DNA of 31,171 nucleotides, taken from NCBI GenBank assembly GCA_039919215.1, contig JBDSGC010000230.1:1-31171 (forward strand), read 5' to 3'. Of the stretch, positions 1,645-15,886 are shown in pieces. Numbering within the stretch: position 1 is the stretch's first letter; the number at the start of each line of letters is the position of its first letter. Origin of the DNA: Thermoanaerobaculia bacterium. Its GTDB lineage: Bacteria > Acidobacteriota > Thermoanaerobaculia > Gp7-AA8. Under the pieces are notes generated by a model. It saw only the letters and a list, made by a program, of their open reading frames with translations, ran no database searches and had not been told where the DNA came from. The position numbers and the translations under genes are program-made.

Positions 1645-1650
1645 AGTTTA
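1645..1650 (-). promoter_or_regulatory. Candidate -10 box (TAAACT) 8 nt before the ferredoxin ATG
   Basis: ggTAAACTgagagtccATG. The box includes the TAA stop of the upstream gene, so it may be coincidental. Confidence 0.3.
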
Positions 1651-3375: not shown

Positions 3376-4185
3376 TCACGATGTGGTGGTCAGCAGATCC
3401 AGAAAGCTCTGGATCGTGTTGAGCTTCCTCTCTGACTGCGAATACAGCTTCGAAGCGAAAATCGCCGTGGCGGCGTGGGCAGCCAGCAGCGAAAACAATT
3501 CATAGTCCACAGCGGAGAACGAGTCCTTCTGCTGGAGCAGCTTGTAAATGGCGATCAGCCCGATGACGTGCTCTTTGATTTTCAGCGGAATGGCAGCCAG
3601 AGGTCTGTCGATGGTGACCTTGCCGCCGTCGACATCCTGATTGATGTAGTAGCTCTCGCCGGTCTTGGCCACCGTGCCGATGACGCCTTCGCCCAGGCGG
3701 CTGGAGAGCTGCTCGATCCCCGGCATGACGTCCTCGCCCTCGAAGGCGATGGACTTCAGCTCGTTGGTCTTTTCGTCGAGCAGCAGAATGGCGAAGGACT
3801 CCGCGCCCACCAGGTTGATCACGATCTCCTGGACGATCTGGATGACCTCCCGGAAGTCCATGGTGGAGTGCAACTGGTAACTGGCAACGTAGAGATTGGC
3901 CAGATTGTTGTTCTGGTCTTCGATCTCCACGTACCGGGAGGCGAAGTCCTTGTTCTCTTCTTCCACGGCCCGGAACTTCCGGGCAATGCGCCGGTTTTCC
4001 TCGGTCAGCTGGGACACTTCATCGCGCAACCGCTGGACCTCTTCGCCCGATCCCGTACCCGATTCGGCATCGATCGCAGCGACGCGGTACCGCAGCCTCT
4101 GGTTCTCCCGAAGAAGTTCTTCGGTGAACTCTTTTCCCTTGTTGAACAGCTCCAGAAATTTCTCTGCGCGTTGCTCTTCGCTCAT
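3376..4185 (-). CDS. Coiled-coil + GAF domain protein with no output domain, 269 aa
   Basis: Heptad-rich N-terminus (EELLRENQRLRY...EVQRLRDEVSQLTEENRRI), then a GAF signature (LHSTMDFREVIQIVQEIV...LGEGVIGTVAKTG...AIPLKIKEHVIGLIAIY...ELFSLLAAHAATAI). Confidence 0.85.
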   Translation of the reverse strand: MSEEQRAEKFLELFNKGKEFTEELLRENQRLRYRVAAIDAESGTGSGEEVQRLRDEVSQLTEENRRIARKFRAVEEENKDFASRYVEIEDQNNNLANLYVASYQLHSTMDFREVIQIVQEIVINLVGAESFAILLLDEKTNELKSIAFEGEDVMPGIEQLSSRLGEGVIGTVAKTGESYYINQDVDGGKVTIDRPLAAIPLKIKEHVIGLIAIYKLLQQKDSFSAVDYELFSLLAAHAATAIFASKLYSQSERKLNTIQSFLDLLTTTS

Positions 4186-4288: not shown

Positions 4289-5329
4289 TCATCCCTGACA
4301 CAACCGATGGATCGCTGCCGGAATCTCACCGAGGGGGAGCACCTGCTCGACGGCGCCCGTCTTGATGGCCTCGTTGGGCATCCCGAAGATGATCGCGGTC
4401 TCCGCAGATTCCGCGATGGTCCGCCCACCGCGGTCCCGCAGCTGGCGGATGGAAGCGGCACCGTCATCGCCCATGCCGGTCAGGATGACGGCGATCAGTT
4501 TGTCTGCGCAGACTTCGCTGGCGCTTTGCAGCAGACGATCGACGGACGGGGCGTAGAGGTCGTTTGCACTGGCCGGCAACACCGCGATGCGGAGGCCTGC
4601 GGACCCACGCCGGATCTCCGTCTGCATTCCGCCCGGTGCCACGTAGACGACCCCGTTCTCGATGCTCTCGCCATCCATCGCTTCCTTCACCTGATACTGC
4701 GAGAGCCGGTTGACGCGCTCGGCAAAGAGCCGGGTGAAAGCCGGCGGCATGTGCTGCGCCACAACCATGGGGATGGGCAGCAGTGGCAGGGTCTGGAAGA
4801 GGAGCTGCAGAGCGGGCGGCCCTCCGGTGGAGCAACCGATGACGATCAACTCGATTCCGCCCTGACATCCCACCGCATCCACGGGCTTCAACACTTCCCC
4901 AACCTCATCGTTGACGATGCTGCGCTGCAGGTTGTCCATGCGCAGTTGGGCAACCTGAAGCACCTTGGCGATGAGATCTTTGCGGATCTCCTCCAGCCGA
5001 GGCGAAACGCGGCCGCCCGGTTTCTGGATGAAATCGAAGGCGCCGAGCTCCAGCGCCTTGAACACACTGCGGTCGCTGGCCTTCGACGATACGGCGATGA
5101 CCGGCGTGGGCCGATCGTGCATCAGCCACCGCAGGAAGGCGAAACCGTCCATGACCGGCATCTCCAGATCGAGGGTGATGACGTCGGGCCGGTGCTTGAC
5201 CACCTGCTTGATGGCGTCCTCACCGTGGACCGCCGTGGCCACCACGCGGATCTCCGGATGCGACTCCAGCATGCGCGAGATGGTCACGCGGTTGTAGGCC
5301 GAGTCATCCACCACCAGGGCGCGGATCAT
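4289..5329 (-). CDS. cheB: Chemotaxis response-regulator methylesterase CheB, 346 aa
   Basis: Receiver (VVDDS, TLDLEMP, QKP) plus methylesterase triad motifs GCSTGG, QHMP and GMGDDG. Confidence 0.96.
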   Translation of the reverse strand: MIRALVVDDSAYNRVTISRMLESHPEIRVVATAVHGEDAIKQVVKHRPDVITLDLEMPVMDGFAFLRWLMHDRPTPVIAVSSKASDRSVFKALELGAFDFIQKPGGRVSPRLEEIRKDLIAKVLQVAQLRMDNLQRSIVNDEVGEVLKPVDAVGCQGGIELIVIGCSTGGPPALQLLFQTLPLLPIPMVVAQHMPPAFTRLFAERVNRLSQYQVKEAMDGESIENGVVYVAPGGMQTEIRRGSAGLRIAVLPASANDLYAPSVDRLLQSASEVCADKLIAVILTGMGDDGAASIRQLRDRGGRTIAESAETAIIFGMPNEAIKTGAVEQVLPLGEIPAAIHRLCQG

Positions 5330-5384: not shown

Positions 5385-6236
5385 TCACCGCTGGTACACC
5401 ATGTCGTTCTTCAGGTGACGCAGCTTGAACTGCGTGGACAGGGAGATCAGAGACTCGGAGTGCCCGAGCAGCAGATACCCTCCGTCGACCAGTCGGTTGT
5501 AGAAATTGGTCACCACCACCCGCTTGGAGGTGTCGTCGAAGTAGATGATCACGTTGCGGCAGAAGATCACGTCGAGGTGGCCCAGGAGCGACACCCGCGA
5601 CTGGTCGTAGAGATTGAGGCGCCCGAAGGACACACGGTTGCGCACGTCGTCGTGAAGGTGCCACGACCCGTCCGGCTGGCGGCTGAAGTACTTGTCCCGG
5701 AGGTTGGGGTCGGTGGCCCGGAAGGCGGTCTCCCGGTAGTGTCCGCGCCGGGCCTTGGAGAGCACCTGCTGGCTGATGTCACTGGCGAAAATCTCGAACG
5801 ATGCATGCTCGTAGTAGCCGGCCTCCTGCAGCAGCATGGCCAGTGAGTACGGCTCTTCTCCCGAGGAGCAGCCGGCCGACCAGATGCGGATCCGCTTGAC
5901 GGTCTTGCGCGACAGAATGTCCGGGATGACTTCCTCCACGAAGGCGGTGAGTTGCGCCGGCTCGCGGAAAAAGTACGTCTCGTTCGTGGTCACCATGTCG
6001 TAGATCTGGTCGAACTCGGCGTCCGCACGCGGGTCGTACTGGAGGAAGTAGAAGTATTTCTGGAAGGAGTCGAAGTTCAGCTCGCGCGCTCGAGGAGAGA
6101 GCCGCTTCTGCAACAGGTACTTGGAGGAGTCCGCGAACCACATGCCGGTACGCACATAAATCTGATCGCGCAACTGCCTGAAGACGTCATCAGGGAGTTC
6201 GAGGTGATGGTTGAGCGAGAGGCTGAACGTGGACAT
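5385..6236 (-). CDS. cheR: Protein-glutamate methyltransferase CheR, 283 aa
   Basis: TTNETYFFRE, IWSAGCSSGEEPYS, ASDIS, DVIFCRNVIIYFD, LLGHSES. Confidence 0.96.
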   Translation of the reverse strand: MSTFSLSLNHHLELPDDVFRQLRDQIYVRTGMWFADSSKYLLQKRLSPRARELNFDSFQKYFYFLQYDPRADAEFDQIYDMVTTNETYFFREPAQLTAFVEEVIPDILSRKTVKRIRIWSAGCSSGEEPYSLAMLLQEAGYYEHASFEIFASDISQQVLSKARRGHYRETAFRATDPNLRDKYFSRQPDGSWHLHDDVRNRVSFGRLNLYDQSRVSLLGHLDVIFCRNVIIYFDDTSKRVVVTNFYNRLVDGGYLLLGHSESLISLSTQFKLRHLKNDMVYQR

Positions 6237-6302: not shown

Positions 6303-8525
6303 TCAACTCTTCTCCTTCATCGCCTGCAGAATCGCCGCAATCACCACCTCACGACGGCTGTCGGCGGTCCGCCACGCTTCCTCGAGCAGGTCCCGGAACA
6401 GCTGCTTGTGATGCACGAAGACATCGGACACCTCGTCGAGCACGGCGGCGTTCTCCAGGGCCTTGAACAGGACCGGAAACGAGGAGCGATCGGGGAGCTT
6501 GTCCAGAGCCAGCACAGCCGACTGCTGGACGTAGGTATCAGGGTCCTCCACCGCCCGATGGAGCGCGGGCAAGGCCACCGGATCGCCGCGCAGTCCCACC
6601 GACGCAGCCGCCGCAGCGCGGATCCGCCAGTCGTTGTCGTTGAGGGCGAACATCAGGTAATCGAAGACCTCATCGCCGGGGATCCGGGAGAGCGCCAGGA
6701 TGGCCGCGCGGCGAATCTCCAGGTCGGCGTCGTAAGCCGCGCGGAAGAGCACATCCTTGACCCGCTCGTCTTCCGATCTTCCCAGCGCCTCCAGCGCGGC
6801 GATCCGCACCGGCGGAAGGTCATGCTCCAGGTGGCGGATCAGCGGCTCCACCGCCTCGAGATGGCGGTACGCGCCCAGCGACTGCGCCGCGGCGGTGCGG
6901 ATCCAGATGTCGTGGTCCTCCAGAGAACTGATCAGCGGTTCGATTCCTTTCTCTGGGCGCAGTCGCACGATCGCGTTGATGGCTGCCAGCCTCACGCCGG
7001 TGGACTCATCGGCTAAAGAGAGGACAAGCTGGTCGGCGAAGCGTTCCTCACCAAATTTCCCCATCAGGGAGATCGCCTTCTGCCGGATGACCGGATCGCT
7101 GTCCTTCGACGCCAGCAGCAGTTCATCGTGATACCCCTCTCCCTGGATGTTCACGAAGACCGACAGGGAGTTGAGCTTCATGGGCACCGACGTCACCTGC
7201 AGCATCTTGCGGATCCTGGCCAGGACCTCCTGCTTCATCTCCGGATAGGCCGCCACCAGCGCGGAGATCGAGTTCACCGCGGCCTGCTGCGAAGCCACGT
7301 CGGAGTCGTCGAGTTTGGCCAGCAGGTAGTCGATGGACCGCGGATCGCTGATCTGTCCCAGGGTCTCGATGACCAGGCGGCGGATCATGGCCTGCTCGTG
7401 ATCGAGGAACGGAAGGATGTGCGGGATGGTCTCCGCTCCACCGATCACATTGATGATGCGGAGGAGCAGAGCCACGATCTCGTCTTCCCCGGAGTTGCGC
7501 AGGGTCTCCTCGATGACCGGCAGCGATCCCGGTCCGAAATCGATCAGGGCCTGAGCAGCGGTCTCCGCCGTGTCCGGCTGTTCGAGGTAATTGATCAGAA
7601 CAGGCAGCGCGCGCGGGTCGGCGGACCACCCGAGAAACTTGAGGATGAAGCTCCGGACGTCCCGCTTGGAAGTGCTGCGCAGATGGTCGATGAGCGGTTC
7701 CAGTTTCTCGCGGGGGAACGACTCGCGAAACTTGCGCTGCACCAGAAGACGCTCGGCCTGCTCGACAATCTTCGGCTTGTTGGCCTCGGCAATGCGCACC
7801 AGTGCGCGCAACGCCGTCAGATTGAGCTTCTCCTCTTCGGCGATGACCTTGAGCAGAAACGACACCGTCCCCACGTCCCCGATCTTGCCGACTGCCTCCA
7901 GAACCGGTTTGCGCATCGACTTCTCGGAGTAGAACGGAAGGATCGACGGCAACGCCGAGCGGTCACCGATCTCTCCCAGCGCTTCCACCACGTGAAATTT
8001 GAGCCAGAGGTCGTCCCGCTCCAGCAGCGCGATCAGGGGCGCAAGCGAAGAGGCATCGCGGTATTTGCCCAGGGAGGACACTGCAGACGAGGCGATGTTG
8101 ACGTCCTGTTCCGATGCGGCGATCTGCAGCAGAAGGCGGAAACCATCCTGATTCCTCAAATCGCCCAGCAGGTTCACCAGCGAGAGGCGGACGTCCGGAT
8201 CAGACTCGGTGCGTAGACGCTGCACGATCGGAGCGATGCCGGCCACCCCGATGCGGATCAGCGCCTCGGTGGCCGAGTTTCGCTTTCCCGCATTCTCCGG
8301 GTCGGCCAGCGAGTCCAGCAGCCCGAGGATCACTTCCTCCTGCGGGTCGCGGACGAAGCCGTCGACGATGGTCTTGCGTACACGCCAGTCCTTGTCGCCG
8401 AGCAACTCGAACATCAGCGGCAGATCCCGCTGTTCCGTCCCATGGGCCACGAGATACGCGGCCTTCTGACGGGCGTCCGGGTCAGCCGAACGGGCCTGTT
8501 CCACCAGTTGAGGATCTGCGTTCAT
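6303..8525 (-). CDS. Large cytoplasmic HEAT-repeat protein, about 740 aa
   Basis: Continuous HEAT/PBS repeats (DKDWRVRKTIV, DLWLKFHVVEALGEIGD, DIWIRTAAAQSLG, DWRIRAAAAASVG). Start moved from the track's 8624 to ATG 8525 (MNADPQL) because the extension is not repeat-like. Confidence 0.85.
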   Translation of the reverse strand: MNADPQLVEQARSADPDARQKAAYLVAHGTEQRDLPLMFELLGDKDWRVRKTIVDGFVRDPQEEVILGLLDSLADPENAGKRNSATEALIRIGVAGIAPIVQRLRTESDPDVRLSLVNLLGDLRNQDGFRLLLQIAASEQDVNIASSAVSSLGKYRDASSLAPLIALLERDDLWLKFHVVEALGEIGDRSALPSILPFYSEKSMRKPVLEAVGKIGDVGTVSFLLKVIAEEEKLNLTALRALVRIAEANKPKIVEQAERLLVQRKFRESFPREKLEPLIDHLRSTSKRDVRSFILKFLGWSADPRALPVLINYLEQPDTAETAAQALIDFGPGSLPVIEETLRNSGEDEIVALLLRIINVIGGAETIPHILPFLDHEQAMIRRLVIETLGQISDPRSIDYLLAKLDDSDVASQQAAVNSISALVAAYPEMKQEVLARIRKMLQVTSVPMKLNSLSVFVNIQGEGYHDELLLASKDSDPVIRQKAISLMGKFGEERFADQLVLSLADESTGVRLAAINAIVRLRPEKGIEPLISSLEDHDIWIRTAAAQSLGAYRHLEAVEPLIRHLEHDLPPVRIAALEALGRSEDERVKDVLFRAAYDADLEIRRAAILALSRIPGDEVFDYLMFALNDNDWRIRAAAAASVGLRGDPVALPALHRAVEDPDTYVQQSAVLALDKLPDRSSFPVLFKALENAAVLDEVSDVFVHHKQLFRDLLEEAWRTADSRREVVIAAILQAMKEKS

Positions 8526-8670
8526 GGCGTGCCGACCAGTGGGCTTCGGCGCGGTGGCAGCGCCGTTCGAGCCCTTGTCGCATTCGAAGGCAGGCCGCGC
8601 TGAGTTGCACCACCACGGGCACACGACGCGTTCTTCGCTCGCAGCGGCGAGAGGGTGCGGGGCTGCACGT

Positions 8671-9534
8671 TCATCGGGTGGCCGTCCTCAACCGGGCCAT
8701 CTCTTCGCGTTTCATCTGCACAAACTGCTGGATCGTCTCGCTGAAGATCTCTGTGTCCCGGCGCACCCGCATGGGAACGCGGGAGTCGTAATACTGGCGA
8801 CCCTCTTCGATCTCATCGCGAAGAATTTCGAAAAAACTGTTGTCCCGGATCCCCTGCTCCACTTTGGACGGGTGATAGATCACGATGTCGCTGAGGATGA
8901 GACGGGCCAGACGCCGGGCCTCATCCCACTCGCGGGACTCCACGGGAATCTCCTCCCCGGAACCGAGGTCCGGAAAGAGTTTGTGGATGATCTGCTGGAA
9001 CTCCTGCTCCGGAATCTGCTCCTCGATGTACTCGTCTGCGCCATAGAGATTGGTCGGATTGGCCCGGAAGCGGTTGGCCCGAAACAGTGCCCCGATGAGA
9101 ATGACCCGCACGTGGGTCTGGGCGGAATCGGCCTTGATCTCCTCGGAGACTTCCACGCCCAGCTTGCCCTTCAAATACACGTTCACGATGACCAGGTCGG
9201 TCCTGGTGTTCTGCACGAATTCGAGGGCCGGGTCACCAGTCTCGAAAAGTGTGACGTCAAAACCGCTGGAGCGCAGGTGATCGGCCAGAAAGGTGCGAAA
9301 CGGTCGCGGCTCATCGGCGATCACGGCGACGCGCCGTTTCGGTCCCGCAGCACCCGGGGGCACCGCCAGAGGGCGCGCCGGCACGGGGGCAGCGCCTGCC
9401 GGAGGGGCGGCCGCCGCAGGTTTCAGCACCATCGGGTTGCGGCAGGCAGGGCAAGCGACGCGGACGGGCTGGGTCAGCGGCAGCGCGATGGCAGCACGAA
9501 AACGGGCGTGACAGGATCGACAGGTCAGTTCCAT
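8671..9534 (-). CDS. Zinc-ribbon + pseudo-receiver + RomX-like C-terminal domain protein, 287 aa
   Basis: CRSC...CPAC; Pro/Ala linker; receiver fold with LVIVN at the phospho-Asp site; C-terminus EARRLARLILSDIVIY...GIRDNSFFEILRDEIEEGRQYYDSRV resembles Myxococcus RomX as I recall it. Confidence 0.75.
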   Translation of the reverse strand: MELTCRSCHARFRAAIALPLTQPVRVACPACRNPMVLKPAAAAPPAGAAPVPARPLAVPPGAAGPKRRVAVIADEPRPFRTFLADHLRSSGFDVTLFETGDPALEFVQNTRTDLVIVNVYLKGKLGVEVSEEIKADSAQTHVRVILIGALFRANRFRANPTNLYGADEYIEEQIPEQEFQQIIHKLFPDLGSGEEIPVESREWDEARRLARLILSDIVIYHPSKVEQGIRDNSFFEILRDEIEEGRQYYDSRVPMRVRRDTEIFSETIQQFVQMKREEMARLRTATR

Positions 9535-9537
9535 GGG

Positions 9538-10263
9538 TCAGGCCAGTAGCTTGTCCAAATCAAGAAGAATCGTCAATGCAGCAGCTTGACGAAAGATGCC
9601 GCGAATTGGCTCCCGCTCTTCGCTGGCGTGCACCACCGGCTGGGGCTGGATCTCCGACGCCTCCACTTTGACTACGCGCAGAACACGGTCGACCTCGAAG
9701 CCGAGCGTTTCACTCCCTCTCCCGACCACGATGATACGGGAGTCGGGTCCGGAGCCGGCGGATGGATGCCCGAGGCGGGCCCGTGCGTCCATGATGGTGA
9801 CGATGGTGCCGCGGAGGGAGATGATGCCCCGCACAGATCGTTCCGCGTTGGGGACCCGTGTCACGTCGCGGATCGGAATGATTTCCACGACGCGCTCGAT
9901 GCCGGCGGCGTAGTGCTCCCCGGCGATGGCGAAGGTCAGGACTTCGATGAGGTGGCCCTCTTCGCTGAGCGCGACCTGATGGACCAGCCCCTCCCGCCGT
10001 TTTCCGGCGATCTCCTTGAACCGTTCCAGTTTCGACGGGCCAGCGGGAAAGGCCTCCACTGCCGGCGGCGGGCTTCCTGCGTTCTTGAGCGGCTGGGCGG
10101 CGATCGACGAGTGCGGGAGGAGGACCGGCGGGAGCGGTGACGCCGGTTGCCCGACCGGCGCTTCGGTGCCCACGGCTTCCGGGGAGGTGTCCGGCTGGCG
10201 AGACGCCTCTACCCGGGCTTCCTGCTCTTTCGCTTTTTTGCGGAGCTTGACCAGATCAACCAT
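9538..10263 (-). CDS. cheW: CheW adaptor with about 100-aa N-terminal extension, 241 aa
   Basis: VLTFAIAGEHYA, VVEII, TRVPNAERSVRGIISLRGTIVTIMD, GFEVDRVLRV, ILLDLDKL. The start overlaps the ATPase stop (ATGGTTGA). Confidence 0.92.
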   Translation of the reverse strand: MVDLVKLRKKAKEQEARVEASRQPDTSPEAVGTEAPVGQPASPLPPVLLPHSSIAAQPLKNAGSPPPAVEAFPAGPSKLERFKEIAGKRREGLVHQVALSEEGHLIEVLTFAIAGEHYAAGIERVVEIIPIRDVTRVPNAERSVRGIISLRGTIVTIMDARARLGHPSAGSGPDSRIIVVGRGSETLGFEVDRVLRVVKVEASEIQPQPVVHASEEREPIRGIFRQAAALTILLDLDKLLA

Positions 10264-11116
10264 TCGGCTGGCCCTCTCGCAGCGGCGCGCGCGGCCCGGA
10301 TGGATCGGCGACTCGCTTCCTCAGCCGGTGCTCGCGCGCAGCCGCTTCAATCCGAGTCCGGTCAATCCGGGTCTCGTCGTCGCCGAATGCTTCGAGCAGA
10401 GCTGTCGTGGCCAGGGTATTGATCAATCGAGGGATGCCTCCGCTGATCTCGTGCAGTGCACGAACGGCGTCGTCATCGAAGGGATTCCGAGTGCCTCCGG
10501 CAACGGCGATGCGATGGGCCACGTAGGAAGCCACCTCCTCCTCCGAAAGCGGTCCCAGACGATAGCGGAATCCGATGCGCTGTCGCAGCGGCGCGTAGGG
10601 AGCGCGATCGAGCTTCGTTTCCAGCTCCGGCTGGCCGATCAGGAGCACCGACAGAAGATTCTGGTCGTCGAGTTGAAAGTTCGTCAGCAGTCGGATCTCA
10701 TCGAAGGTGGCCTTTCCCGGGATGAGCTGCGCTTCGTCGATGATCAGCACCGGCTCGCGCTTCTGCTCGAACAGCTCGAACAGCCGGGTGTGGATCTGGT
10801 CGAGAAGGTCGTTGCGGAATCGCGCCGGAGTCAACCCCAGCCCGGAAGCGATGGATCGCAGTAGCTGCGCCGGCGTCAGACGCGGGTTGATGAGCAGAAT
10901 GATCGGACGGGTGTCGGCGACGCGATCGATGAGGGCGCGCGAGATGGTGGTCTTCCCCGAGCCGATGTCCCCCACCAGCAGAGCGAGGTCCTTCTCCTCC
11001 ACTGCATACTCCAGCCGGGCCAGCGCCTCGCGATGCTGGTCTGATTCGAACAGGAACGCCGGGTCGGGCGTCTTTCCGAACGGCTTGCTGCGAAGACCAA
11101 AGAATGTTTCGAACAT
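10256..11116 (-). CDS. ExeA/GspA-family AAA ATPase, about 286 aa, with no peptidoglycan-binding extension
   Basis: FFGLRSKPFGKTPDP N-motif, Walker A GDIGSGKT, Walker B LIIDEAQ, LIGQPEL, SGGIPRLIN. Start placed at ATG 11116. Confidence 0.88.
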   Translation of the reverse strand: MFETFFGLRSKPFGKTPDPAFLFESDQHREALARLEYAVEEKDLALLVGDIGSGKTTISRALIDRVADTRPIILLINPRLTPAQLLRSIASGLGLTPARFRNDLLDQIHTRLFELFEQKREPVLIIDEAQLIPGKATFDEIRLLTNFQLDDQNLLSVLLIGQPELETKLDRAPYAPLRQRIGFRYRLGPLSEEEVASYVAHRIAVAGGTRNPFDDDAVRALHEISGGIPRLINTLATTALLEAFGDDETRIDRTRIEAAAREHRLRKRVADPSGPRAPLREGQPNG

Positions 11117-11266
11117 GCACCGGGGAGCGTCGCTCCGTCCTTGTCGTCGTGATTTGTGAGTGGACCGATCGTCTTTCTCCACAGCCGGAGAGTCCGGCCA
11201 GGAGATCAGGGACCACAGGTTACCGGAACCCCTGCGGTTCGCGATCCTCGCGCTCCAGAGGGTCGA

Positions 11267-13318
11267 CTACCCGACCACCTGCGCGCGCGATTCCCTCGCC
11301 CGTCCTCCGTAGGCCTCGATCAGCGTCCCCACATCGATGACCAGCACGATCTCTCCCTCTCCCACCTCGGTGGCGCCGGCGATCCCGGGGATCACATTCA
11401 ATCGTTCCCCGATCGCCTTGATCACCACCTCCTGCTGGCGTACCAGCCCATCCACGAGAATTCCGGCCACTTTCTCACCAGAACGGGTGACCACCACGAA
11501 CCACTTGGTGTCGGGCGTCTCTTCGCCTGCAGGCAGATTGAAGGCGTCCGCCAGGCGCAGCAGCGGAAGGGTGAAATCGCGGAGGGTGCTGACCTCCCGG
11601 CGCTCCACGGTCCGGATGTCCCGGGAGTAAATCCGCAGAGACTCCTCGACGGAAGTCAGCGGAATGGCGAACTGCTCCTGCCCTGCCCGCACGATCAACG
11701 CCTGGATGATGGCCAGGGTGATGGGAAGCATGATGCGGAAGGTGGTTCCTTTCCCGACGACGGAGAGGATCTCGATCGTCCCTTTGAGCTCCTGCAGGTT
11801 CTTCTTCACCACGTCCAGGCCGACGCCGCGGCCGGAGATCTCGCTCACCGCCGCGGCAGTGGAGAACCCCGCACCGAACAGCAATTCGTAGGCCCTCGCC
11901 GCATCGACGGTCTCCTCTGCTGAAATCACACCCCGGGCAATCGCTTCCTTGCGCACCACCGCCGGATCGATGCCCCCCCCGTCATCGGTCACGTCGATGA
12001 CCACCGAGTTCCCCTGCTGGTACGCGTTCAGGGTGATCCTTCCCAGCGCCGGCTTGCCTGCGGACTGGCGCTGATCGGGCGTCTCGATCCCGTGATCGAG
12101 GGCGTTGCGGATGATGTGCATGAGCGGATCGGTGAGCTCCTCGACCATGACTTTGTCCAGTTCCGTATCTTCCCCGCGGAGAACCAGCTCGATGGGCTTG
12201 TTCAGGTCCCGCGCGAGCTTGCGCACCGTCCGGGAGAGCTTGGCGTAGATCTGTCCGACCGGAACCATCCGCGTTTCGATCACCGACTTCTGCAACTCGT
12301 TGAGCTTGCGATCGAGATTGCGCGCGATCTTGTTCAGCTCATGGGCCACCAGTCGTGCCTGCTGCTGCCCCACTCCTCTGGTCAGCGTCTCCAGCTGTGT
12401 TTTCTGGATGATCAACTCGCCGACGATGTTCATGACCGCATCGAGCTTGGCGATGTCCACCCGCACCGTCTGGGAGATCGAGCGCAGTGAAAGCTCTTCT
12501 TCCGCCACGCCCTCGGGGACGACGGCAGCGCCGGCAGTGCCCGCCTTCCCCTCGATCATGGAGCTCGGGACTGCCAGCTCCGATTTTCTCAACGAAATCA
12601 CCACTGCCTCGGGCGCCATCGCGGCAACCGCGTCACGATTGAGGATCGATCCGTACAGCAGGCGGAAGGCAATGCCTGACCCGCCGCTGCCATCGATCGC
12701 CGGAAGGGTGGAGATCACCTCCCCTCCCTCGTTCAACGAGGCCGTCAGCGCGCGCAACTTCTCATCGAAGTCGGAGAAGTCGAAACGCACCTGCACCGAA
12801 AGGATCTGTTTCCCGCCGCGCACGTTCTCCAGCAGGCGGTGCTCCTCGTACTCGGTCAGCGACTTGCGGGTCTGCTCGTCCAGCGTGAGCTCGCTGAGGG
12901 TGTCCCCCGCTTTCTGCTGCGGCTGATTGCTGATGGAGTGATGAATTCTCCGCGCCAGCGCCGAGACATCGACCAGCGCGCCTACCGACGGATCGCTGAT
13001 GGCGATGACCAGACGGTTCAGGGAGTCCACCGAGTCGTACAGGAGGTCAATCAGCCCGCGATCGATCTCCACCTTTCCCATGCGCAGCCGGTCCAGCATG
13101 TCCTCCAGGCTGTGGGAGAGCTCGGAGATCTCACTGAAACCGAGCATCCCGGCGAGCCCTTTGAGCGAGTGGACTTCCCGGAAGATTTTGTTGATCACCT
13201 CCGGCCGGACGTCTTTGCCCTGCGACTCGAACTCCACCAGGTCGCGCGACAGCGTATCGAGCAGCTCTTCGGCCTCGCTGGTGAACTCCACTCGCGCTCG
13301 ATCGTCTTCTTTGGCCAT
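11267..13318 (-). CDS. cheA: Histidine kinase CheA (HPt-P2-dimerisation-HATPase-CheW), 683 aa
   Basis: FREVHSLKGLAGMLG, VRVDIAKLDAVMNIVGELII, HIIRNALDHGIE, DDGGGID, GFSTAAAVSEISGRGVGLDVV, C-terminal CheW-like P5. Confidence 0.97.
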   Translation of the reverse strand: MAKEDDRARVEFTSEAEELLDTLSRDLVEFESQGKDVRPEVINKIFREVHSLKGLAGMLGFSEISELSHSLEDMLDRLRMGKVEIDRGLIDLLYDSVDSLNRLVIAISDPSVGALVDVSALARRIHHSISNQPQQKAGDTLSELTLDEQTRKSLTEYEEHRLLENVRGGKQILSVQVRFDFSDFDEKLRALTASLNEGGEVISTLPAIDGSGGSGIAFRLLYGSILNRDAVAAMAPEAVVISLRKSELAVPSSMIEGKAGTAGAAVVPEGVAEEELSLRSISQTVRVDIAKLDAVMNIVGELIIQKTQLETLTRGVGQQQARLVAHELNKIARNLDRKLNELQKSVIETRMVPVGQIYAKLSRTVRKLARDLNKPIELVLRGEDTELDKVMVEELTDPLMHIIRNALDHGIETPDQRQSAGKPALGRITLNAYQQGNSVVIDVTDDGGGIDPAVVRKEAIARGVISAEETVDAARAYELLFGAGFSTAAAVSEISGRGVGLDVVKKNLQELKGTIEILSVVGKGTTFRIMLPITLAIIQALIVRAGQEQFAIPLTSVEESLRIYSRDIRTVERREVSTLRDFTLPLLRLADAFNLPAGEETPDTKWFVVVTRSGEKVAGILVDGLVRQQEVVIKAIGERLNVIPGIAGATEVGEGEIVLVIDVGTLIEAYGGRARESRAQVVG

Positions 13319-13419: not shown

Positions 13420-13439
13420 CCGCCGGCCGTGCCAGCCTA
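13420..13439 (-). repeat. REP-like palindromic hairpin, copy 2
   Basis: Minus strand TAGGCTGGCACGGCCGGCGG, starting at the TAG stop of cheY 13437..13817. Confidence 0.5.
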
Positions 13440-13817
13440 GGCGACTTTCAGCAGGCGCTGCAGCTTCTCCAGGAGATCGTCGGCCTGGAACGGCTTGACC
13501 AGATACTCCTCGGCGCCCAGTGCGGCGGCGCGACGACGGTCCTCGTCGCTCGCTTCGGTCGAGATGACCATGATGGGGATGGCCTTGTAGACGGGATGAC
13601 TCTTCAGAAAGCTCACCAGTTCCAGCCCGTTGATGTCCGGCATGTTGATGTCGGTGAGGATGGCGTCGAAGCGATGGTGGGGAAGCATCTTCAGGGCCTC
13701 GAATCCGCTCGCAGCCTCCACGATGTCGAGCTCCACGGGATGATTCCCCGACTCGATGACCGTGGTCAGGTAGGCCCGCATGGAGGAGGAGTCTTCCACC
13801 ACCAGAATCTTCAACAA
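13437..13817 (-). CDS. cheY: CheY-like single-domain response regulator, about 126 aa
   Basis: KILVVEDSSSMR, ILTDINMPDING, IST, LVKPF. TTG start at 13817 (or 13814) after GGGGG; the track's longer ORF overlaps the upstream gene. Confidence 0.9.
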   Translation of the reverse strand: MLKILVVEDSSSMRAYLTTVIESGNHPVELDIVEAASGFEALKMLPHHRFDAILTDINMPDINGLELVSFLKSHPVYKAIPIMVISTEASDEDRRRAAALGAEEYLVKPFQADDLLEKLQRLLKVA

Positions 13818-13911
13818 GCAGGCACCCCCACGCAGCGCACCCTGCCCCGTCGGATCCCCAGGCAGGAAGCGGCTTTCTTCGGCATCCTGCGCTCTGCGTT
13901 CTGCATCGGAC

Positions 13912-15789
13912 TCACCGCTCTCCTGCGCCACGCTCTGCAGCCGAGGCGGCATTCCCGAAGGCATATCCAGCCTGCGAGAGGAAAATCTCCAGACCGGCCA
14001 CGCTCTCGATCGGCCCACGCTGCTCGGCGTTGTCACCATACAGGATCCCGATGGCGCGCGCCCCATTCATGATCGGAAGGGCGGTCACTTCGGTAGGCAG
14101 CAGGCCGCCCATCGCGTTGATCAGCGCGACATTCGCCGGTGTCTTGCGCATCTTCCCGCGGTGGGTCTGGCCCGACTGCGCCACGTCCTCGAGCAGGGAT
14201 GGCGCTCCGCGCGGAATGCGCATTGCGCGGACGCGGGCATCCATGTCCGGAGCGTCCACGGTCATACCGAAACCGCCGAGGCCGACGAACTCCCGCTCGC
14301 GCACCACAAAAATTGCTCCTCGGTCGAGATATCCCTCCGATAGCCTCAGAATCGTCGAAGCCACCTCGCCGACATCGTTGGGGTCTGACAACTCGTTGAT
14401 GAGCTGCTTGAGCACCCCGAAGCTTCGCTCCACCGTCTCTTTCTCCGCCTCGTCGTAAAAGCGCTTGCCCGCGGTCGGATCGAATCCTCCAGCAAACTGC
14501 TCCCACTGGCCAAACGCCCGTTCTGCAAACAGAACCAGCTCCTCCGCAAAAAGCCGCAGCTCTTCCTCGGCCAGACCGGGCTGAAGGCGCGCAGAGGATG
14601 GTTTGGTGAGGTAGAGGTCAGCGCCCTTCGCCAGCAGATCGTGCCGGCGTCGCAGATCGGCCTCCTGGTCGATCACCACCACTGGAAGCCGAGGATTTCT
14701 GCGCTTGAGCTGCACCATCACCTGCTCGGCCTGGCCTGTCATTTCCAGAAAGGTGACGAAGAAGGTGTTGGTGCGAAGCAGGTTGGCAGTCGCCGAGCGC
14801 ACGTCCTCGAGCAAACCAAACTGCTCAATTTTCACTCCCTGCTTGCCGAACGCCCGTTTCGCAGCAACCCGGATCATGGGGTTGCTCTCGAACAGCACGA
14901 CATGACGCTGCAACGCCTCCGGCGACTGGACTTCGATCAACCCGCCGGCCACCTTGAACTTGCCGGACTTCGAAGAGAGGCGGGCGGCAGGCGCGGGCTC
15001 AGCAGCGCTCTCCATCGCCACGGGCGCGGCCGTCGCGGACGGGCCAGCAAACGGCGGGGCCGGGATGGGTTCAGACGTCGGGACCGGGCCGGCTTCCGCG
15101 GCGGGGAAGGGAACGACGTTGTCGACGGGCGCTGCTTTCGCATCCGGTGCGGCGGATGGTGCGGGCTTCTCTCCCTGCGAGCCGCCGAGGGACTGACCGA
15201 GGCCCAGATTCAATGAGGCGGGCGTCGACTCCGCGGGGGCCGAGCCACGCAACAGGGCCTTGCCGATTTTCAGAGACTCTTCCAACCCGCGCAGAGGCTT
15301 GAGCTTTTCGCCATCCACCGACGCGATGATTTTCTGGGGCGACAAACCGCCTTCGCGGAAGACCGTGTCGGCGTCGTATTCAACATCGAGAGGACTGGCG
15401 CGCTCGCTGAGGATGAAATTGAATTCCCCTTCACGGCTCTGCAGAAGCGGAGTGACGACATCGATGATCCTGCTCCGGATGGCCTCCGCCAGATCTTCCT
15501 GGGAAATCAGGTTCATCTCCACGGCGGCGGTTCCATACGGGATGCCGTTCTCCTCCATCTGTCGCAGGGTGACACCGGACCCCGCCGGGATCCGGGAGTC
15601 CCGCTCCAGCCATGTCACCAGGTCGGGATACTCAGGCGAGGAAGCGTTGACGATCAGTCCCTGCCGGAACAGCACCGTGTGACGGCCACCACGATCGACG
15701 ATCTCCAGAACGCCCGTGCGGCGACTGAGGTAAACGATCTGCACAATGTCGGTGAGGGAGAGGTCTTCCAGTCGCCCCAGCAGACTCAT
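13912..15789 (-). CDS. DUF4388 + Pro/Ala linker + pseudo-receiver + GAF-like protein, about 625 aa
   Basis: MSLLGRLEDLSLTDIVQIVYLSRRTGVL is a DUF4388 signature; degenerate receiver (VVLFES...TFLEM...GADLYLTKP); GAF-like tail (LLEDVAQSGQ...ALPIMNGARAIGILYGDN). GGGGA RBS before ATG 15789. Confidence 0.8.
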   Translation of the reverse strand: MSLLGRLEDLSLTDIVQIVYLSRRTGVLEIVDRGGRHTVLFRQGLIVNASSPEYPDLVTWLERDSRIPAGSGVTLRQMEENGIPYGTAAVEMNLISQEDLAEAIRSRIIDVVTPLLQSREGEFNFILSERASPLDVEYDADTVFREGGLSPQKIIASVDGEKLKPLRGLEESLKIGKALLRGSAPAESTPASLNLGLGQSLGGSQGEKPAPSAAPDAKAAPVDNVVPFPAAEAGPVPTSEPIPAPPFAGPSATAAPVAMESAAEPAPAARLSSKSGKFKVAGGLIEVQSPEALQRHVVLFESNPMIRVAAKRAFGKQGVKIEQFGLLEDVRSATANLLRTNTFFVTFLEMTGQAEQVMVQLKRRNPRLPVVVIDQEADLRRRHDLLAKGADLYLTKPSSARLQPGLAEEELRLFAEELVLFAERAFGQWEQFAGGFDPTAGKRFYDEAEKETVERSFGVLKQLINELSDPNDVGEVASTILRLSEGYLDRGAIFVVREREFVGLGGFGMTVDAPDMDARVRAMRIPRGAPSLLEDVAQSGQTHRGKMRKTPANVALINAMGGLLPTEVTALPIMNGARAIGILYGDNAEQRGPIESVAGLEIFLSQAGYAFGNAASAAERGAGER

Positions 15790-15868
15790 CGAATCCCCCG
15801 TGCCGGCCTGGGGCACGCGAGGAGCGGGAGGCGGAGAGGCGTGAACCGTCCGCGCGGCCAACGCAGGA

Positions 15869-15886
15869 GACCGCGGCAACGCGGTC
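15869..15886 (-). terminator. GC hairpin after nusB, with no clear U-tract
   Basis: GACCGCG-TTGC-CGCGGTC perfect 7-bp stem about 15 nt after the nusB stop. Confidence 0.3.

What the first reader, a model, noticed from the sequence alone, without database searches (positions are those of the whole stretch)
8671..9534. RomX-like domain fused to a pseudo-receiver and Zn-ribbon inside a che operon
Seen: the C-terminal about 85 aa (8674-8931) read ARRLARLILSDIVIY...GIRDNSFFEILRDEIEEGRQYYDSRV. The receiver lacks the phospho-Asp (LVIVN) and the conserved Lys (YIEEQ). Recalled knowledge: this pattern matches Myxococcus xanthus RomX, which with the receiver-containing RomR forms the GEF for the small GTPase MglA. 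Inference: a Rosetta-stone receiver-RomX fusion that could connect a Che pathway directly to an MglA-type polarity GTPase, a link I do not know to be described.
Basis: partly seen in the sequence, partly recalled or inferred. Interest (0 to 1): 0.72.

Follow-up and report, generated by a model that had tools for sequence, protein, structure and literature searches.

The report
RomX-domain pseudo-receiver in chemosensory operon
A conserved accessory protein of a poorly understood chemotaxis-like gene cluster ends in a true homologue of RomX, the Myxococcus protein that binds the polarity GTPase MglA. This suggests, but does not prove, that this cluster type signals to the cell-polarity switch.

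Summary
ORF 8671-9534 (minus strand, 287 aa) has three parts:
- a 4-Cys zinc ribbon;
- a receiver-fold domain that cannot be phosphorylated (Asn118, Gly148 and Glu172 replace Asp, Thr/Ser and Lys; all invariant in 120 homologues);
- a C-terminal three-helix domain homologous to M. xanthus RomX.

The RomX match is strong: PDB 8ZNA at E 1e-12 with the single sequence, 7.5e-27 with a family profile, and TM 0.80 for the model. The RomX residues needed for MglA binding (R11, R14, D19) are kept.

The genome encodes mglB-mglA and two more MglA-like genes. In 121 Acidobacteriota genomes, RomX-like domains and MglA co-occur: 85 have both, 25 neither, 11 only one.

The protein holds a fixed slot (CheW, this gene, HEAT, CheR) in a cluster conserved in Acidobacteriota, Nitrospirota, Geobacteraceae and Myxococcota. 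This is the Geobacter beta-group/Esn and Myxococcus Che8 type.

Novelty is limited. A 2024 preprint already noted zinc-finger + receiver + RomX-fold proteins. The cluster type is catalogued. This scan also reached the same reading on other DNA (e1-689415, e1-2221927). I found no paper that joins RomX to this cluster.

Binding to MglA is inferred. Co-folding gave only weak support, and RomX's GEF activity is itself disputed.

The parts
8671..9534 (-). Whole gene: 287-aa zinc ribbon + pseudo-receiver + RomX-domain protein (P0001), including the stop codon.
   Evidence: ORF list and translation. More than 1000 homologues at E<=1e-3; the best 120 are 67-87% identical and mostly from Thermoanaerobaculia/Acidobacteriota. 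AlphaFold model has mean pLDDT 89.6.
9424..9534 (-). N-terminal 4-Cys zinc ribbon (residues 1-37; C5, C8, C28, C31), MJ0042 / GltJ / ZitP type.
   Evidence: Pfam Zn_ribbon_4 has E 1.9e-4, below the cut-off. The four Cys are invariant in 120 homologues. A family profile matches PDB 2NB9 at E 4e-9 and 7ZOK (AgmX/GltJ ZnR) at E 2.9e-8. GltJ ZnR has its Cys at the same positions, C5/C8/C28/C31 (PMC11135422).
9337..9423 (-). Ala/Pro-rich linker (residues 38-66), low model confidence.
   Evidence: pLDDT is 59-60 in blocks 41-60. This stretch is poorly conserved in the family.
8965..9336 (-). Receiver-fold domain (residues 67-190) with a dead phosphorylation site.
   Evidence: Pfam Response_reg E 1.9e-10. 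Foldseek gives TM about 0.8 by target to DivK, CheY and others. N118 replaces the phospho-Asp, G148 the Thr/Ser and E172 the Lys; all three are invariant in 120 homologues. The model has no helix alpha4: residues 149-167 form a loop carrying the conserved motif ending LYGADEYIE.
9181..9183 (-). Codon AAC = Asn118 at the phospho-acceptor position.
   Evidence: Read directly from the sequence. N in 120 of 120 close homologues. D in 72 of 110 wider RomX-domain proteins.
8674..8943 (-). C-terminal RomX-homologous three-helix domain (residues 198-287). R208, R211 and D216 correspond to RomX R11, R14 and D19.
   Evidence: PDB 8ZNA: E 1.1e-12, profile E 7.5e-27, model TM 0.80. R208, R211 and D216 are conserved in 104, 98 and 101 of 110 diverse RomX-domain proteins. 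Their mutation in RomX abolishes the MglA interaction or exchange activity (preprint).
9538..10263 (-). cheW, immediately upstream (3-nt gap to the target's ATG).
   Evidence: Pfam CheW E 2.2e-30; sequence.
10256..11182 (-). AAA_22 (ExeA-like) ATPase between cheA and cheW.
   Evidence: Pfam AAA_22 E 2.2e-20. The same slot is filled in relatives and in a Geobacteraceae MAG. This matches the published order GSU2222 CheA / GSU2221 ATPase / GSU2220 CheW.
11267..13318 (-). cheA (Hpt, dimerisation, HATPase and CheW-like domains).
   Evidence: Pfam.
13437..13820 (-). cheY-type single-domain response regulator (start approximate; the listed ORF reaches 14066).
   Evidence: Pfam Response_reg E 9.7e-27. 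It is 122-132 aa in relatives.
13912..15879 (-). PATAN (DUF4388/PatA_N) protein with a weak receiver match; first gene of the cluster.
   Evidence: Pfam DUF4388 E 7.8e-21, Response_reg E 1.5e-3. It is conserved at this position in all loci examined.
6303..8624 (-). HEAT-repeat protein (about 740 aa) immediately downstream.
   Evidence: Pfam HEAT_2 E 1.2e-78. It always follows the target gene and is fused to CheR in L105. In L107 the 675-aa gene in this slot has no Pfam hit on record.
5385..6236 (-). cheR.
   Evidence: Pfam CheR E 1.1e-60.
4289..5329 (-). cheB (receiver + methylesterase).
   Evidence: Pfam.
3376..4185 (-). Coiled-coil + GAF protein, a conserved last member of the cluster.
   Evidence: Pfam GAF_3 E 4.8e-15, DUF7491 E 3.8e-5. 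It is present after cheB in L010, L105, L106, L107, L108 and L109.

Best explanation
The gene encodes a non-phosphorylatable adaptor that belongs to a chemotaxis-like signalling complex. It probably connects that complex to an MglA-family polarity GTPase.

Shown:
- It has three modules: a zinc ribbon of the GltJ/ZitP type, a receiver fold with a dead active site, and a RomX-homologous helical domain that keeps the three residues RomX needs to engage MglA-GTP.
- It holds a fixed slot (CheW, this gene, HEAT protein, CheR) in a cluster conserved across at least four phyla.
- The genome has mglB-mglA and MglA paralogues.
- RomX-like domains track MglA across Acidobacteriota.
- Some proteins elsewhere carry an MglA-like GTPase and RomX-like domains in one chain.

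Inferred:
- The C-terminal domain binds the GTP form of one of the organism's MglA-like GTPases through helix 1 (R208, R211, D216).
- The receiver-like domain and the zinc ribbon act as protein-docking modules. The receiver may dock onto the CheA/CheW/HEAT complex. By analogy with GltJ, the ribbon may dock onto MglB or a polar factor.
- The protein then either brings MglA-GTP to the signalling complex, or places the complex where MglA-GTP sits.
- Orthologues in other phyla keep the Asp, so the cluster's CheA could gate this step by phosphorylation. In this clade the receiver is locked, so control must come from protein contacts or from the cluster's other two response regulators (PATAN protein and CheY).
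- The likely output is pilus-based surface movement or polarity.
For: RomX homology.

MglA-contact residues: kept here; in 120 of 120 close homologues; in 98-104 of 110 diverse RomX-domain proteins. Their role in RomX is described in the preprint.

Genome content: mglB at L001:669-1214 and mglA at L001:1220-1804, with E 2.4e-97 to solved MglA and 1.6e-54 to MglB. There are two further MglA-like genes.

Co-occurrence in 121 Acidobacteriota genomes: both present in 85, RomX-like only in 3, MglA only in 8, neither in 25. The count includes one unpublished genome, G023, in the 'both' class.

True fusions: P0137, P0149 and P0156 have an N-terminal MglA-like domain (E 1e-57 to 1e-61 against the own MglA) plus 2-3 RomX-like domains.

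Fixed gene slot: seen in Thermoanaerobaculia, Nitrospirota, a Geobacteraceae MAG and a Myxococcota MAG.

Zinc ribbon: the family profile matches the GltJ ZnR at E 2.9e-8. The GltJ ZnR recruits MglB (PMC11135422).

PATAN link: PATAN genes are known neighbours of mglA/mglB (PMC4316618). PATAN + CheY pairs steer type IV pili in Synechocystis (titles). The genome has seven PilB/PilT-type ATPase matches.

Co-folding of the own MglA + this domain + GTP + Mg gave weak support:
- score 0.56, best of 3 controls 0.02;
- the mark was reached by 58 of 80 solved complexes and 2 of 110 mismatched pairs;
- at 0.60 or under, only 7 of those 80 solved complexes and both mismatches that passed;
- the runs agree in at least 93% of contacts, and the partner's pLDDT is at least 86.
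Against: - No binding was measured, and the co-fold is only a weak pass.
- No mglA or mglB gene lies near the cluster in any locus examined. In a complete relative chromosome the five MglA-like genes lie at least about 430 kb from the cluster.
- The RomX helix-3 residues that hold RomR-REC (Leu-Arg pair, Trp87) are not kept at the aligned positions.
- RomX-like domains are also fused to TIR, kinase-like and other modules, so the domain may have partners other than MglA.
- Three of 88 genomes with the domain gave no MglA match. One of them has 45.6 kb of withheld sequence.
- Which of the three to five MglA paralogues would be the partner is unknown.
- The window's genome is a 62% complete MAG.
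Confidence: 0.55

Rival explanations
1. The RomX-like bundle is a general receiver-associated output or regulatory module that binds something other than MglA. Candidates are the neighbouring HEAT protein, CheR or CheA. The MglA co-occurrence would then only reflect shared lineage.
For: - 75 of 110 RomX-domain proteins longer than 200 aa also have a receiver.
- The gene is always followed by the HEAT gene, or in L107 by a similar-sized gene with no Pfam hit.
- The domain occurs with many unrelated partners, such as TIR and kinase-like modules.
- No mglA is linked to the cluster.
- Related genomes are not independent, so the co-occurrence count overstates the case (note).
Against: - The three residues shown to matter for the RomX-MglA interaction are almost invariant across the whole domain family.
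- MglA-like GTPases are fused to RomX-like domains in three representative proteins.
- Within one family (f31) the genome with the domain has MglA, and three genomes without the domain lack it.
Confidence: 0.22
2. The protein mainly acts through its pseudo-receiver as a decoy or docking subunit for CheA/CheW. It would tune kinase output or array assembly, and the RomX domain would contribute only to stability or oligomerisation.
For: - The receiver fold is retained under strong selection although it is catalytically dead.
- The gene is packed 3 nt after cheW.
- Pseudo-receivers that work by binding alone are well known; FrzS of M. xanthus appears among the fold matches.
Against: - The C-terminal domain is at least as conserved as the receiver, including surface residues of helix 1.
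- Orthologues in other phyla keep the Asp, so a decoy role cannot be the ancestral one.
Confidence: 0.13
3. The protein is a RomR+RomX equivalent that works as a true nucleotide-exchange factor for MglA.
For: - Szadkowski et al. 2019 and the 2024 preprint report exchange stimulation by RomX.
- A receiver and RomX are in one chain here.
Against: - Dinet et al. 2026 find no GEF activity for RomRX and describe it as an effector that binds MglA-GTP.
- The preprint itself sees binding only to the GTP form.
- The RomR-specific C-terminal region is absent.
- The helix-3 residues that contact RomR are not conserved at the aligned positions.
Confidence: 0.1

Closest known systems
RomX of Myxococcus xanthus (PDB 8ZNA), partner of RomR and binder of MglA-GTP
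   Same: Same three-helix fold and clear sequence homology (34% identity over 86 columns in the Foldseek alignment). Helix-1 residues R11, R14 and D19 are conserved. Both occur in genomes with mglA/mglB.
   Different: RomX is a free-standing protein of about 89 aa that binds the receiver of a separate protein, RomR. Here the domain is the C-terminus of a 287-aa protein with its own dead receiver and a zinc ribbon. The helix-3 Leu-Arg pair and Trp87 that contact RomR are not kept at the aligned positions. The gene sits inside a che-like operon.
Zinc-finger + receiver + RomX-fold 'response regulators' noted by Foldseek in Chakraborty & Gayathri 2024 (bioRxiv 10.1101/2024.02.20.581209; example A0A2N6E6P0)
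   Same: Same three-module architecture. All of these proteins are uncharacterised.
   Different: The preprint gives no genomic context, no statement on the phosphorylation site and no link to chemosensory clusters. This clade has lost the Asp, the Thr/Ser and the Lys.
Geobacter 'beta-group' che cluster (G. sulfurreducens cluster 5; EsnB GSU2220 CheW, GSU2221 ATPase, EsnC GSU2222 CheA) and M. xanthus Che8 (MXAN_4751-4759)
   Same: Shared features are cheA, cheW, cheR and cheB without an mcp gene, and an ATPase between cheA and cheW. A Geobacteraceae MAG has the same gene order, with a full-length homologue of this protein in the same slot. A Myxococcota MAG has the same order, with an MCP added. 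In Che8, two genes not listed as che genes sit between cheW8a and cheR8.
   Different: The G. sulfurreducens and M. xanthus proteins themselves could not be fetched. Orthology to GSU and MXAN locus tags therefore rests on gene order and on MAG relatives. The proteobacterial homologues keep the phospho-Asp and have long Pro-rich linkers.
GltJ (AgmX) zinc-ribbon domain of M. xanthus (PDB 7ZOK) and ZitP of Caulobacter (2NB9)
   Same: Same small 4-Cys ribbon, with the Cys at positions 5, 8, 28 and 31. Both known examples are protein-binding modules in polarity systems: GltJ ZnR binds MglB and ZitP ZnR binds PopZ.
   Different: The single-sequence match is not significant (E 0.27); only the family profile is (E 2.9e-8). 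The partner here is unknown.
Frz chemosensory system acting on the MglA/MglB/RomR-RomX polarity module in M. xanthus
   Same: A Che-type pathway coupled to an MglA switch.
   Different: Frz acts through the phosphorylated response regulators FrzX and FrzZ on separately encoded polarity proteins. Here an MglA-binding-type domain is built into a component of the che operon itself.

Membership tests
RomX family (RomX fold) | Three-helix-bundle fold superposable on 8ZNA | tested here: met
   The model of residues 195-287 (pLDDT 93.9) matches 8ZNA with TM 0.80/0.80 and rmsd 2.0 A. It is the only significant PDB hit.
RomX family (RomX fold) | Significant sequence similarity to RomX | tested here: met
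   phmmer E 1.1e-12; profile E 7.5e-27 over RomX residues 3-83.
RomX family (RomX fold) | Helix-1 residues R11, R14 and D19, needed for the MglA interaction and exchange activity | tested here: met
   They align to R208, R211 and D216. These are invariant in 120 close homologues. Their role in RomX is described.
RomX family (RomX fold) | Helix-3 residues that bind RomR-REC (Leu-Arg pair, Trp87) | tested here: not met
   The aligned positions read Gln-Met, followed by Lys-Arg. There is no Trp in the C-terminal tail.
RomX family (RomX fold) | Free-standing small protein that works with a separate RomR | tested here: not met
   The domain is fused to a zinc ribbon and a receiver in one 287-aa chain.
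RomX family (RomX fold) | Binds MglA-GTP | not testable with these tools
   There is only an in-silico hint: co-fold score 0.56 against a best control of 0.02, rated weak support.
RomX family (RomX fold) | Co-occurrence with mglA/mglB in the genome | tested here: met
   The own genome has mglB-mglA. 85 of 88 Acidobacteriota genomes with the domain have MglA, against 8 of 33 without it.
Phosphorylatable response-regulator receiver | Receiver (CheY-like) fold | tested here: met
   Pfam E 1.9e-10, above the cut-off. Foldseek TM by target is about 0.8. Helix alpha4 is missing in the model.
Phosphorylatable response-regulator receiver | Phospho-acceptor Asp at the end of strand 3 | tested here: not met
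   Asn118, codon AAC at 9181-9183; N in 120 of 120.
Phosphorylatable response-regulator receiver | Conserved Thr/Ser (strand 4) and Lys (strand 5) | tested here: not met
   Gly148 and Glu172, both invariant in the clade. Wider relatives have Ser and Arg/Lys at these positions.
MJ0042-type zinc ribbon (Pfam Zn_ribbon_4/5; GltJ and ZitP ZnR) | Two CxxC pairs about 20 residues apart at the N-terminus, and a match to the family model | tested here: inconclusive
   The four Cys are invariant. The Pfam score of 21.7 bits is below the cut-off of 30.3. The family profile matches 2NB9 at E 4e-9 and 7ZOK at E 2.9e-8, and many orthologues pass Pfam.
Geobacter beta-group / Esn / Myxococcus Che8 chemosensory cluster | cheA, cheW, cheR and cheB together, with no mcp in the cluster | tested here: met
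   Pfam on the window genes. The MCP signalling domain is found only on other contigs. The definition is in Tran 2008.
Geobacter beta-group / Esn / Myxococcus Che8 chemosensory cluster | ATPase gene between cheA and cheW (GSU2222-2221-2220) | tested here: met
   AAA_22 gene at 10256-11182. Same arrangement in Geobacteraceae locus L108. Published order.
Geobacter beta-group / Esn / Myxococcus Che8 chemosensory cluster | Orthology of this protein to the G. sulfurreducens and M. xanthus cluster members | tested here: inconclusive
   Full-length homologues sit in the same slot in a Geobacteraceae MAG (BLASTP E 2e-36) and a Myxococcota MAG (E 6e-15 and 2e-11). The type-strain proteins themselves were not available.
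RomR | Receiver + Pro-rich region + conserved C-terminal region that binds MglC/MglB | tested here: not met
   There is no region after the RomX domain, and the only linker lies before the receiver. Orthology of the receiver to RomR-REC could not be tested because no RomR receiver is in the PDB sequence set.

The most novel reading that the evidence does not exclude
The whole Che8/Esn/beta-group class of chemosensory clusters is found in Acidobacteriota, Nitrospirota, Geobacteraceae and Myxococcota. Its output may run through a built-in RomX-type adaptor that physically couples the CheA/CheW complex to an MglA-family Ras-like GTPase. In most lineages the coupling would be gated by phosphorylation of the adaptor's receiver. 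In Thermoanaerobaculia the receiver has been converted to a constitutive, phosphorylation-independent form. That would be a direct chemosensory-array-to-small-GTPase connection, and it would give these long-orphan clusters a function.
Probability: 0.35. Interest if true: 0.7.

Novelty: new variant of a known kind. Interest (0 to 1): 0.55.

Why it matters
The Geobacter beta-group/Esn and Myxococcus Che8 clusters have been catalogued since 2008. In Geobacter they are needed for electrode colonisation, yet their output is unknown.

This accessory protein carries a bona fide RomX domain, and probably a GltJ-type ribbon as well. That gives a concrete, cheap hypothesis to test: the cluster talks to the MglA/MglB polarity switch.

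Two further points follow:
- RomX is one member of a large, unannotated domain family. A search of 1.84 billion representatives gave 1729 clusters, and Pfam has no model for it.
- The family provides a natural pair of states, phosphorylatable versus locked receiver, for dissecting how a receiver controls a RomX domain.

The value is tempered. The architecture was already noted in a preprint, and everything about binding and output is still inference.

Tried and rejected
1. Pfam and NCBIfam on the C-terminal 103 aa found no family. The domain could only be named through the PDB sequence search.
2. Foldseek searches with the whole-protein model against PDB, AFDB Swiss-Prot and AFDB clusters were swamped by receiver domains. 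They gave no organism names and added nothing beyond confirming the receiver fold. Folding the C-terminal domain alone solved this.
It could not show Geobacter or Myxococcus. These were reached instead through a protein search started from a distant homologue.
4. Full-text searches for MXAN_4755, MXAN_4754, GSU2219 and GSU2218 found nothing. The identity of those genes is therefore not verified.
5. Testing whether the receiver is specifically RomR-like was not possible, because no RomR receiver chain was among the matches.
6. Searching the genomes behind the Nitrospirota and L105 loci for MglA failed because those genomes are not held. Co-occurrence outside Acidobacteriota is untested.
7. I considered that the frame might be a decayed response regulator. 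I rejected this because the substituted residues are invariant across 120 homologues and the whole protein is highly conserved.
8. I considered physical linkage to mglA and rejected it. None of the five MglA-like genes of a complete relative lies near the cluster.
Full report
**What is there**

The minus strand of 8671-9534 holds one open frame of 287 codons. Its ATG lies 3 nt after the stop of cheW, and the HEAT-repeat gene follows soon after its own stop.

Pfam finds a receiver domain at residues 71-183 (E 1.9e-10, above the curated cut-off). It also finds a sub-threshold Zn_ribbon_4 match at residues 1-34. Neither Pfam nor NCBIfam has a model for the last 100 residues.

The 120 nearest homologues are 67-87% identical and come almost entirely from Thermoanaerobaculia and other Acidobacteriota metagenome bins. 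The four Cys, Asn118, Gly148, Glu172, Arg208, Arg211 and Asp216 are invariant in all of them. The frame is therefore a conserved, functional gene.

**The C-terminal domain is RomX**

A sequence search of all PDB chains with residues 185-287 gives one significant hit. It is M. xanthus RomX (8ZNA), at E 1.1e-12, over 73 residues without a gap. A profile of 71 family members raises this to E 7.5e-27 over RomX residues 3-83.

An AlphaFold model of residues 195-287 (pLDDT 93.9) has 8ZNA as its only significant structural match in the PDB. The values are TM 0.80 both ways, rmsd 2.0 A and 34% identity.

The paper that solved RomX showed that R11 and R14 are needed to bind MglA-GTP, and that D19 is needed for exchange stimulation. 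These residues align with R208, R211 and D216. They are kept in 104, 98 and 101 of 110 diverse RomX-domain proteins.

The helix-3 residues that hold the RomR receiver (a Leu-Arg pair and Trp87) are not kept at the aligned positions. The protein reads Gln-Met-Lys-Arg there and has no Trp in its tail.

**The receiver is dead, but only in this clade**

The phospho-acceptor position is Asn118 (codon AAC at 9181-9183). The Thr/Ser position is Gly148 and the Lys position is Glu172.

In the wider set of zinc-ribbon + receiver + RomX proteins these positions are mostly Asp, Ser and Arg/Lys. This includes the Geobacteraceae and Myxococcota homologues. The Asn/Gly/Glu state is shared only with a few deeper relatives (P0163, P0255, P0242).

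The full-length model (pLDDT 89.6, pTM 0.56) gives a receiver without helix alpha4. Residues 149-167 form a loop that carries a motif conserved in the whole family and ends in LYGAD-D/E-YIE.

**The zinc ribbon**

The single sequence gives only weak hits. A profile of 44 family ribbons matches two solved domains:
- 2NB9 at E 4e-9;
- 7ZOK, 'adventurous gliding motility protein X' (GltJ), at E 2.9e-8.

The GltJ paper places its zinc-binding Cys at 5, 8, 28 and 31, exactly as here. It says the fold resembles the ZitP ribbon, which binds PopZ. It also shows that the GltJ ribbon recruits MglB. This is a lead, not a demonstration, for the ribbon's partner.

**The GTPase is present**

The window's assembly is a 62% complete MAG of 376 contigs. 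Contig C314 carries mglB (181 aa, E 1.6e-54 to solved MglB). It is followed 6 nt later by mglA (194 aa, E 2.4e-97 to solved M. xanthus MglA). Two more MglA-like genes (58-59% identity) lie on C229 and C64, and family relatives have five each.

The genome also holds:
- a second RomX-domain protein of 457 aa, with a weak GAF match, a Pro/Ala-rich linker and the RomX domain;
- MCP genes on other contigs;
- seven PilB/PilT-type ATPase matches.

**Co-occurrence**

I searched the same 120 high-quality Acidobacteriota genomes plus the window's own with the RomX-like domain and with MglA. Cross-tabulating by handle gives:

| | MglA found | MglA not found |
|---|---|---|
| RomX-like domain found | 85 | 3 |
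| RomX-like domain not found | 8 | 25 |

One of the three 'domain only' genomes has 45.6 kb of withheld sequence. One genome in the 'both' class (G023) is unpublished; dropping it does not change the picture. Related genomes are not independent, so this is supportive and not a statistic.

A sharper argument comes from fusions. Three representative proteins (P0137, P0149, P0156; 805-1005 aa) start with an MglA-like GTPase domain (E 1e-57 to 1e-61 against the own MglA). They continue with two or three RomX-like domains.

**Co-folding**

I co-folded the own MglA (11-row alignment), the RomX-like domain (71-row alignment), GTP and Mg. The verdict was weak support:
- score 0.56, best of three controls 0.02;
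- the mark was reached by 58 of 80 solved complexes and 2 of 110 mismatched pairs;
- at 0.60 or below, only 7 of those 80 solved complexes and both mismatches that passed;
- the runs agree in at least 93% of contacts, and the partner's pLDDT is at least 86.

I treat this as a small increment only.

**The operon and its relatives**

The window's cluster reads, on the minus strand: PATAN protein with a weak receiver match, CheY, CheA, AAA_22 ATPase, CheW, this protein, a HEAT protein of about 740 aa, CheR, CheB, and a coiled-coil/GAF protein. There is no MCP.

The same order is found in:
- close and distant Acidobacteriota relatives;
- a contig of unknown taxon (L105, where HEAT and CheR are one fused protein);
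- Nitrospirota, where a receiver-GGDEF gene or MCP genes fill the slot of the ATPase;
- a Geobacteraceae MAG with the AAA_22 ATPase;
- a Myxococcota MAG with MCPs.

The Geobacteraceae and Myxococcota proteins align with this one over all three modules.

This agrees with published descriptions:
- Tran et al. [quoted passage not shown] It is conserved in Geobacter, Anaeromyxobacter, Stigmatella and M. xanthus.
- Chan et al. 2017 list GSU2222 CheA, GSU2221 ATPase and GSU2220 CheW as the Esn electrode-colonisation genes.
- Moine et al. 2014 number Che8 as MXAN_4759 CheY, 4758 CheA, 4757 and 4756 CheW, then two genes not listed as che genes, then 4753 CheR, 4752 CheB and 4751 CheY.

I could not fetch the type-strain proteins. 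The assignment of this protein to those two unlisted or unnamed genes is therefore an inference from gene order and from the MAG homologues.

**What is already known**

[quoted passage not shown] They also report that a zinc-finger domain is associated with these hits, and they point to GltJ. They give no gene context and no comment on the phosphorylation site.

No paper in the searchable library contains RomX together with Che8 or Geobacter.

The Frz system of M. xanthus already shows that a Che pathway can drive the MglA switch. PATAN genes are known neighbours of mglA/mglB. Whether RomR/RomX is a GEF is contested: Dinet et al. 2026 find it to be an effector that binds MglA-GTP.

Earlier follow-ups in this scan, on other genomes, reached the same reading of this cluster type (e1-689415, e1-2221927). 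I used them as a lead to the Geobacter and Che8 papers and checked that lead as described above.

**Most likely mechanism**

Shown: the module composition, the dead receiver, the conserved MglA-contact residues, the fixed operon slot, the presence of MglA/MglB, and their co-occurrence with the domain.

Inferred:
- The C-terminal domain binds the GTP form of an MglA-family GTPase.
- The receiver-like domain and the ribbon dock the protein to the CheA/CheW/HEAT complex and perhaps to MglB or a polar factor.
- The chemosensory complex and the polarity switch are thereby tied together.
- In Asp-bearing orthologues this could be gated by CheA. Here it cannot, so signal flow would go through the PATAN protein and CheY, with this protein as a constitutive tether.

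I put about 0.55 on 'binds an MglA-family GTPase and links the cluster to it'. I put about 0.22 on a different partner for the RomX-like bundle, and about 0.13 on a mainly receiver-based decoy or docking role. I put about 0.10 on a true exchange factor, a variant that itself assumes MglA binding and so overlaps the first figure.

**Verdict**

It is a new variant of a known kind: an already noted but uncharacterised architecture, in a catalogued but unexplained cluster type. It is of moderate interest because it yields a direct, testable hypothesis for the output of Che8/Esn-type systems.

Noticed in passing
P0137, P0149, P0156 (representative proteins): Each is a single polypeptide of 805-1005 aa. 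It starts with an MglA-like GTPase domain (E 1e-57 to 1e-61 against the window genome's MglA) and continues with 2-3 RomX-like domains. This is a real GTPase-RomX fusion, and I did not find it mentioned in the papers read.
   Followed up: partly
P0121-P0127: Proteins of about 600-990 aa with 3-5 tandem RomX-like domains. P0121-P0126 also have an N-terminal CxxC...CxxC ribbon. Their function and context are unknown.
   Followed up: no
L007:1304-2677 (minus strand; G000 contig C29): A second RomX-domain protein of the same genome, 457 aa: a weak GAF-like N-terminal domain, a long Pro/Ala-rich linker and a C-terminal RomX-like domain. Many RomX-like matches in other Acidobacteriota genomes lie in frames of a similar size (about 420-520 aa). 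It may be the housekeeping MglA partner of the phylum.
   Followed up: partly
L105:9929-11890: In this relative the HEAT-repeat protein and CheR are one fused 653-aa product. This supports a functional HEAT-CheR partnership in this cluster type (see the first-reader note e1-5304090).
   Followed up: no
window 10256-11182; L106:6874-7839; L108:7491-8291: The slot between cheA and cheW holds an AAA_22 (ExeA-like) ATPase here and in a Geobacteraceae MAG. In Nitrospirota it holds a receiver-GGDEF diguanylate cyclase. This is of interest because the Geobacter Esn network includes a diguanylate cyclase.
   Followed up: no
window 8965-9336 (residues 149-167 of P0001): The receiver of the whole zinc-ribbon/receiver/RomX family appears to lack helix alpha4. 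In its place is a conserved loop motif (R-Y/F-x-R-x-P-x-x-L-Y-G-A-D-D/E-Y-I-E). This rests on one AlphaFold model and the alignments.
   Followed up: partly
G000 contigs C314, C229, C64; G121 (OY970284.1): This lineage has an unusually large set of MglA-like GTPases: three in the 62% complete MAG and five in complete relatives. Four of them sit in longer frames (346-517 aa). The one read through, on C229, continues into an acidic, low-complexity C-terminal extension.
   Followed up: partly
alignment A1: RomX-like domains also occur with a TIR domain (1 protein) and with actin-fragmin-kinase-like catalytic domains (7 proteins).
   Followed up: no
window 1648-2985 (minus strand): A 445-aa ORF downstream of the GAF gene has no Pfam match. 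It is followed by a 4Fe-4S ferredoxin (1163-1636) and a second, shorter HEAT-repeat protein (216-1076).
   Followed up: no
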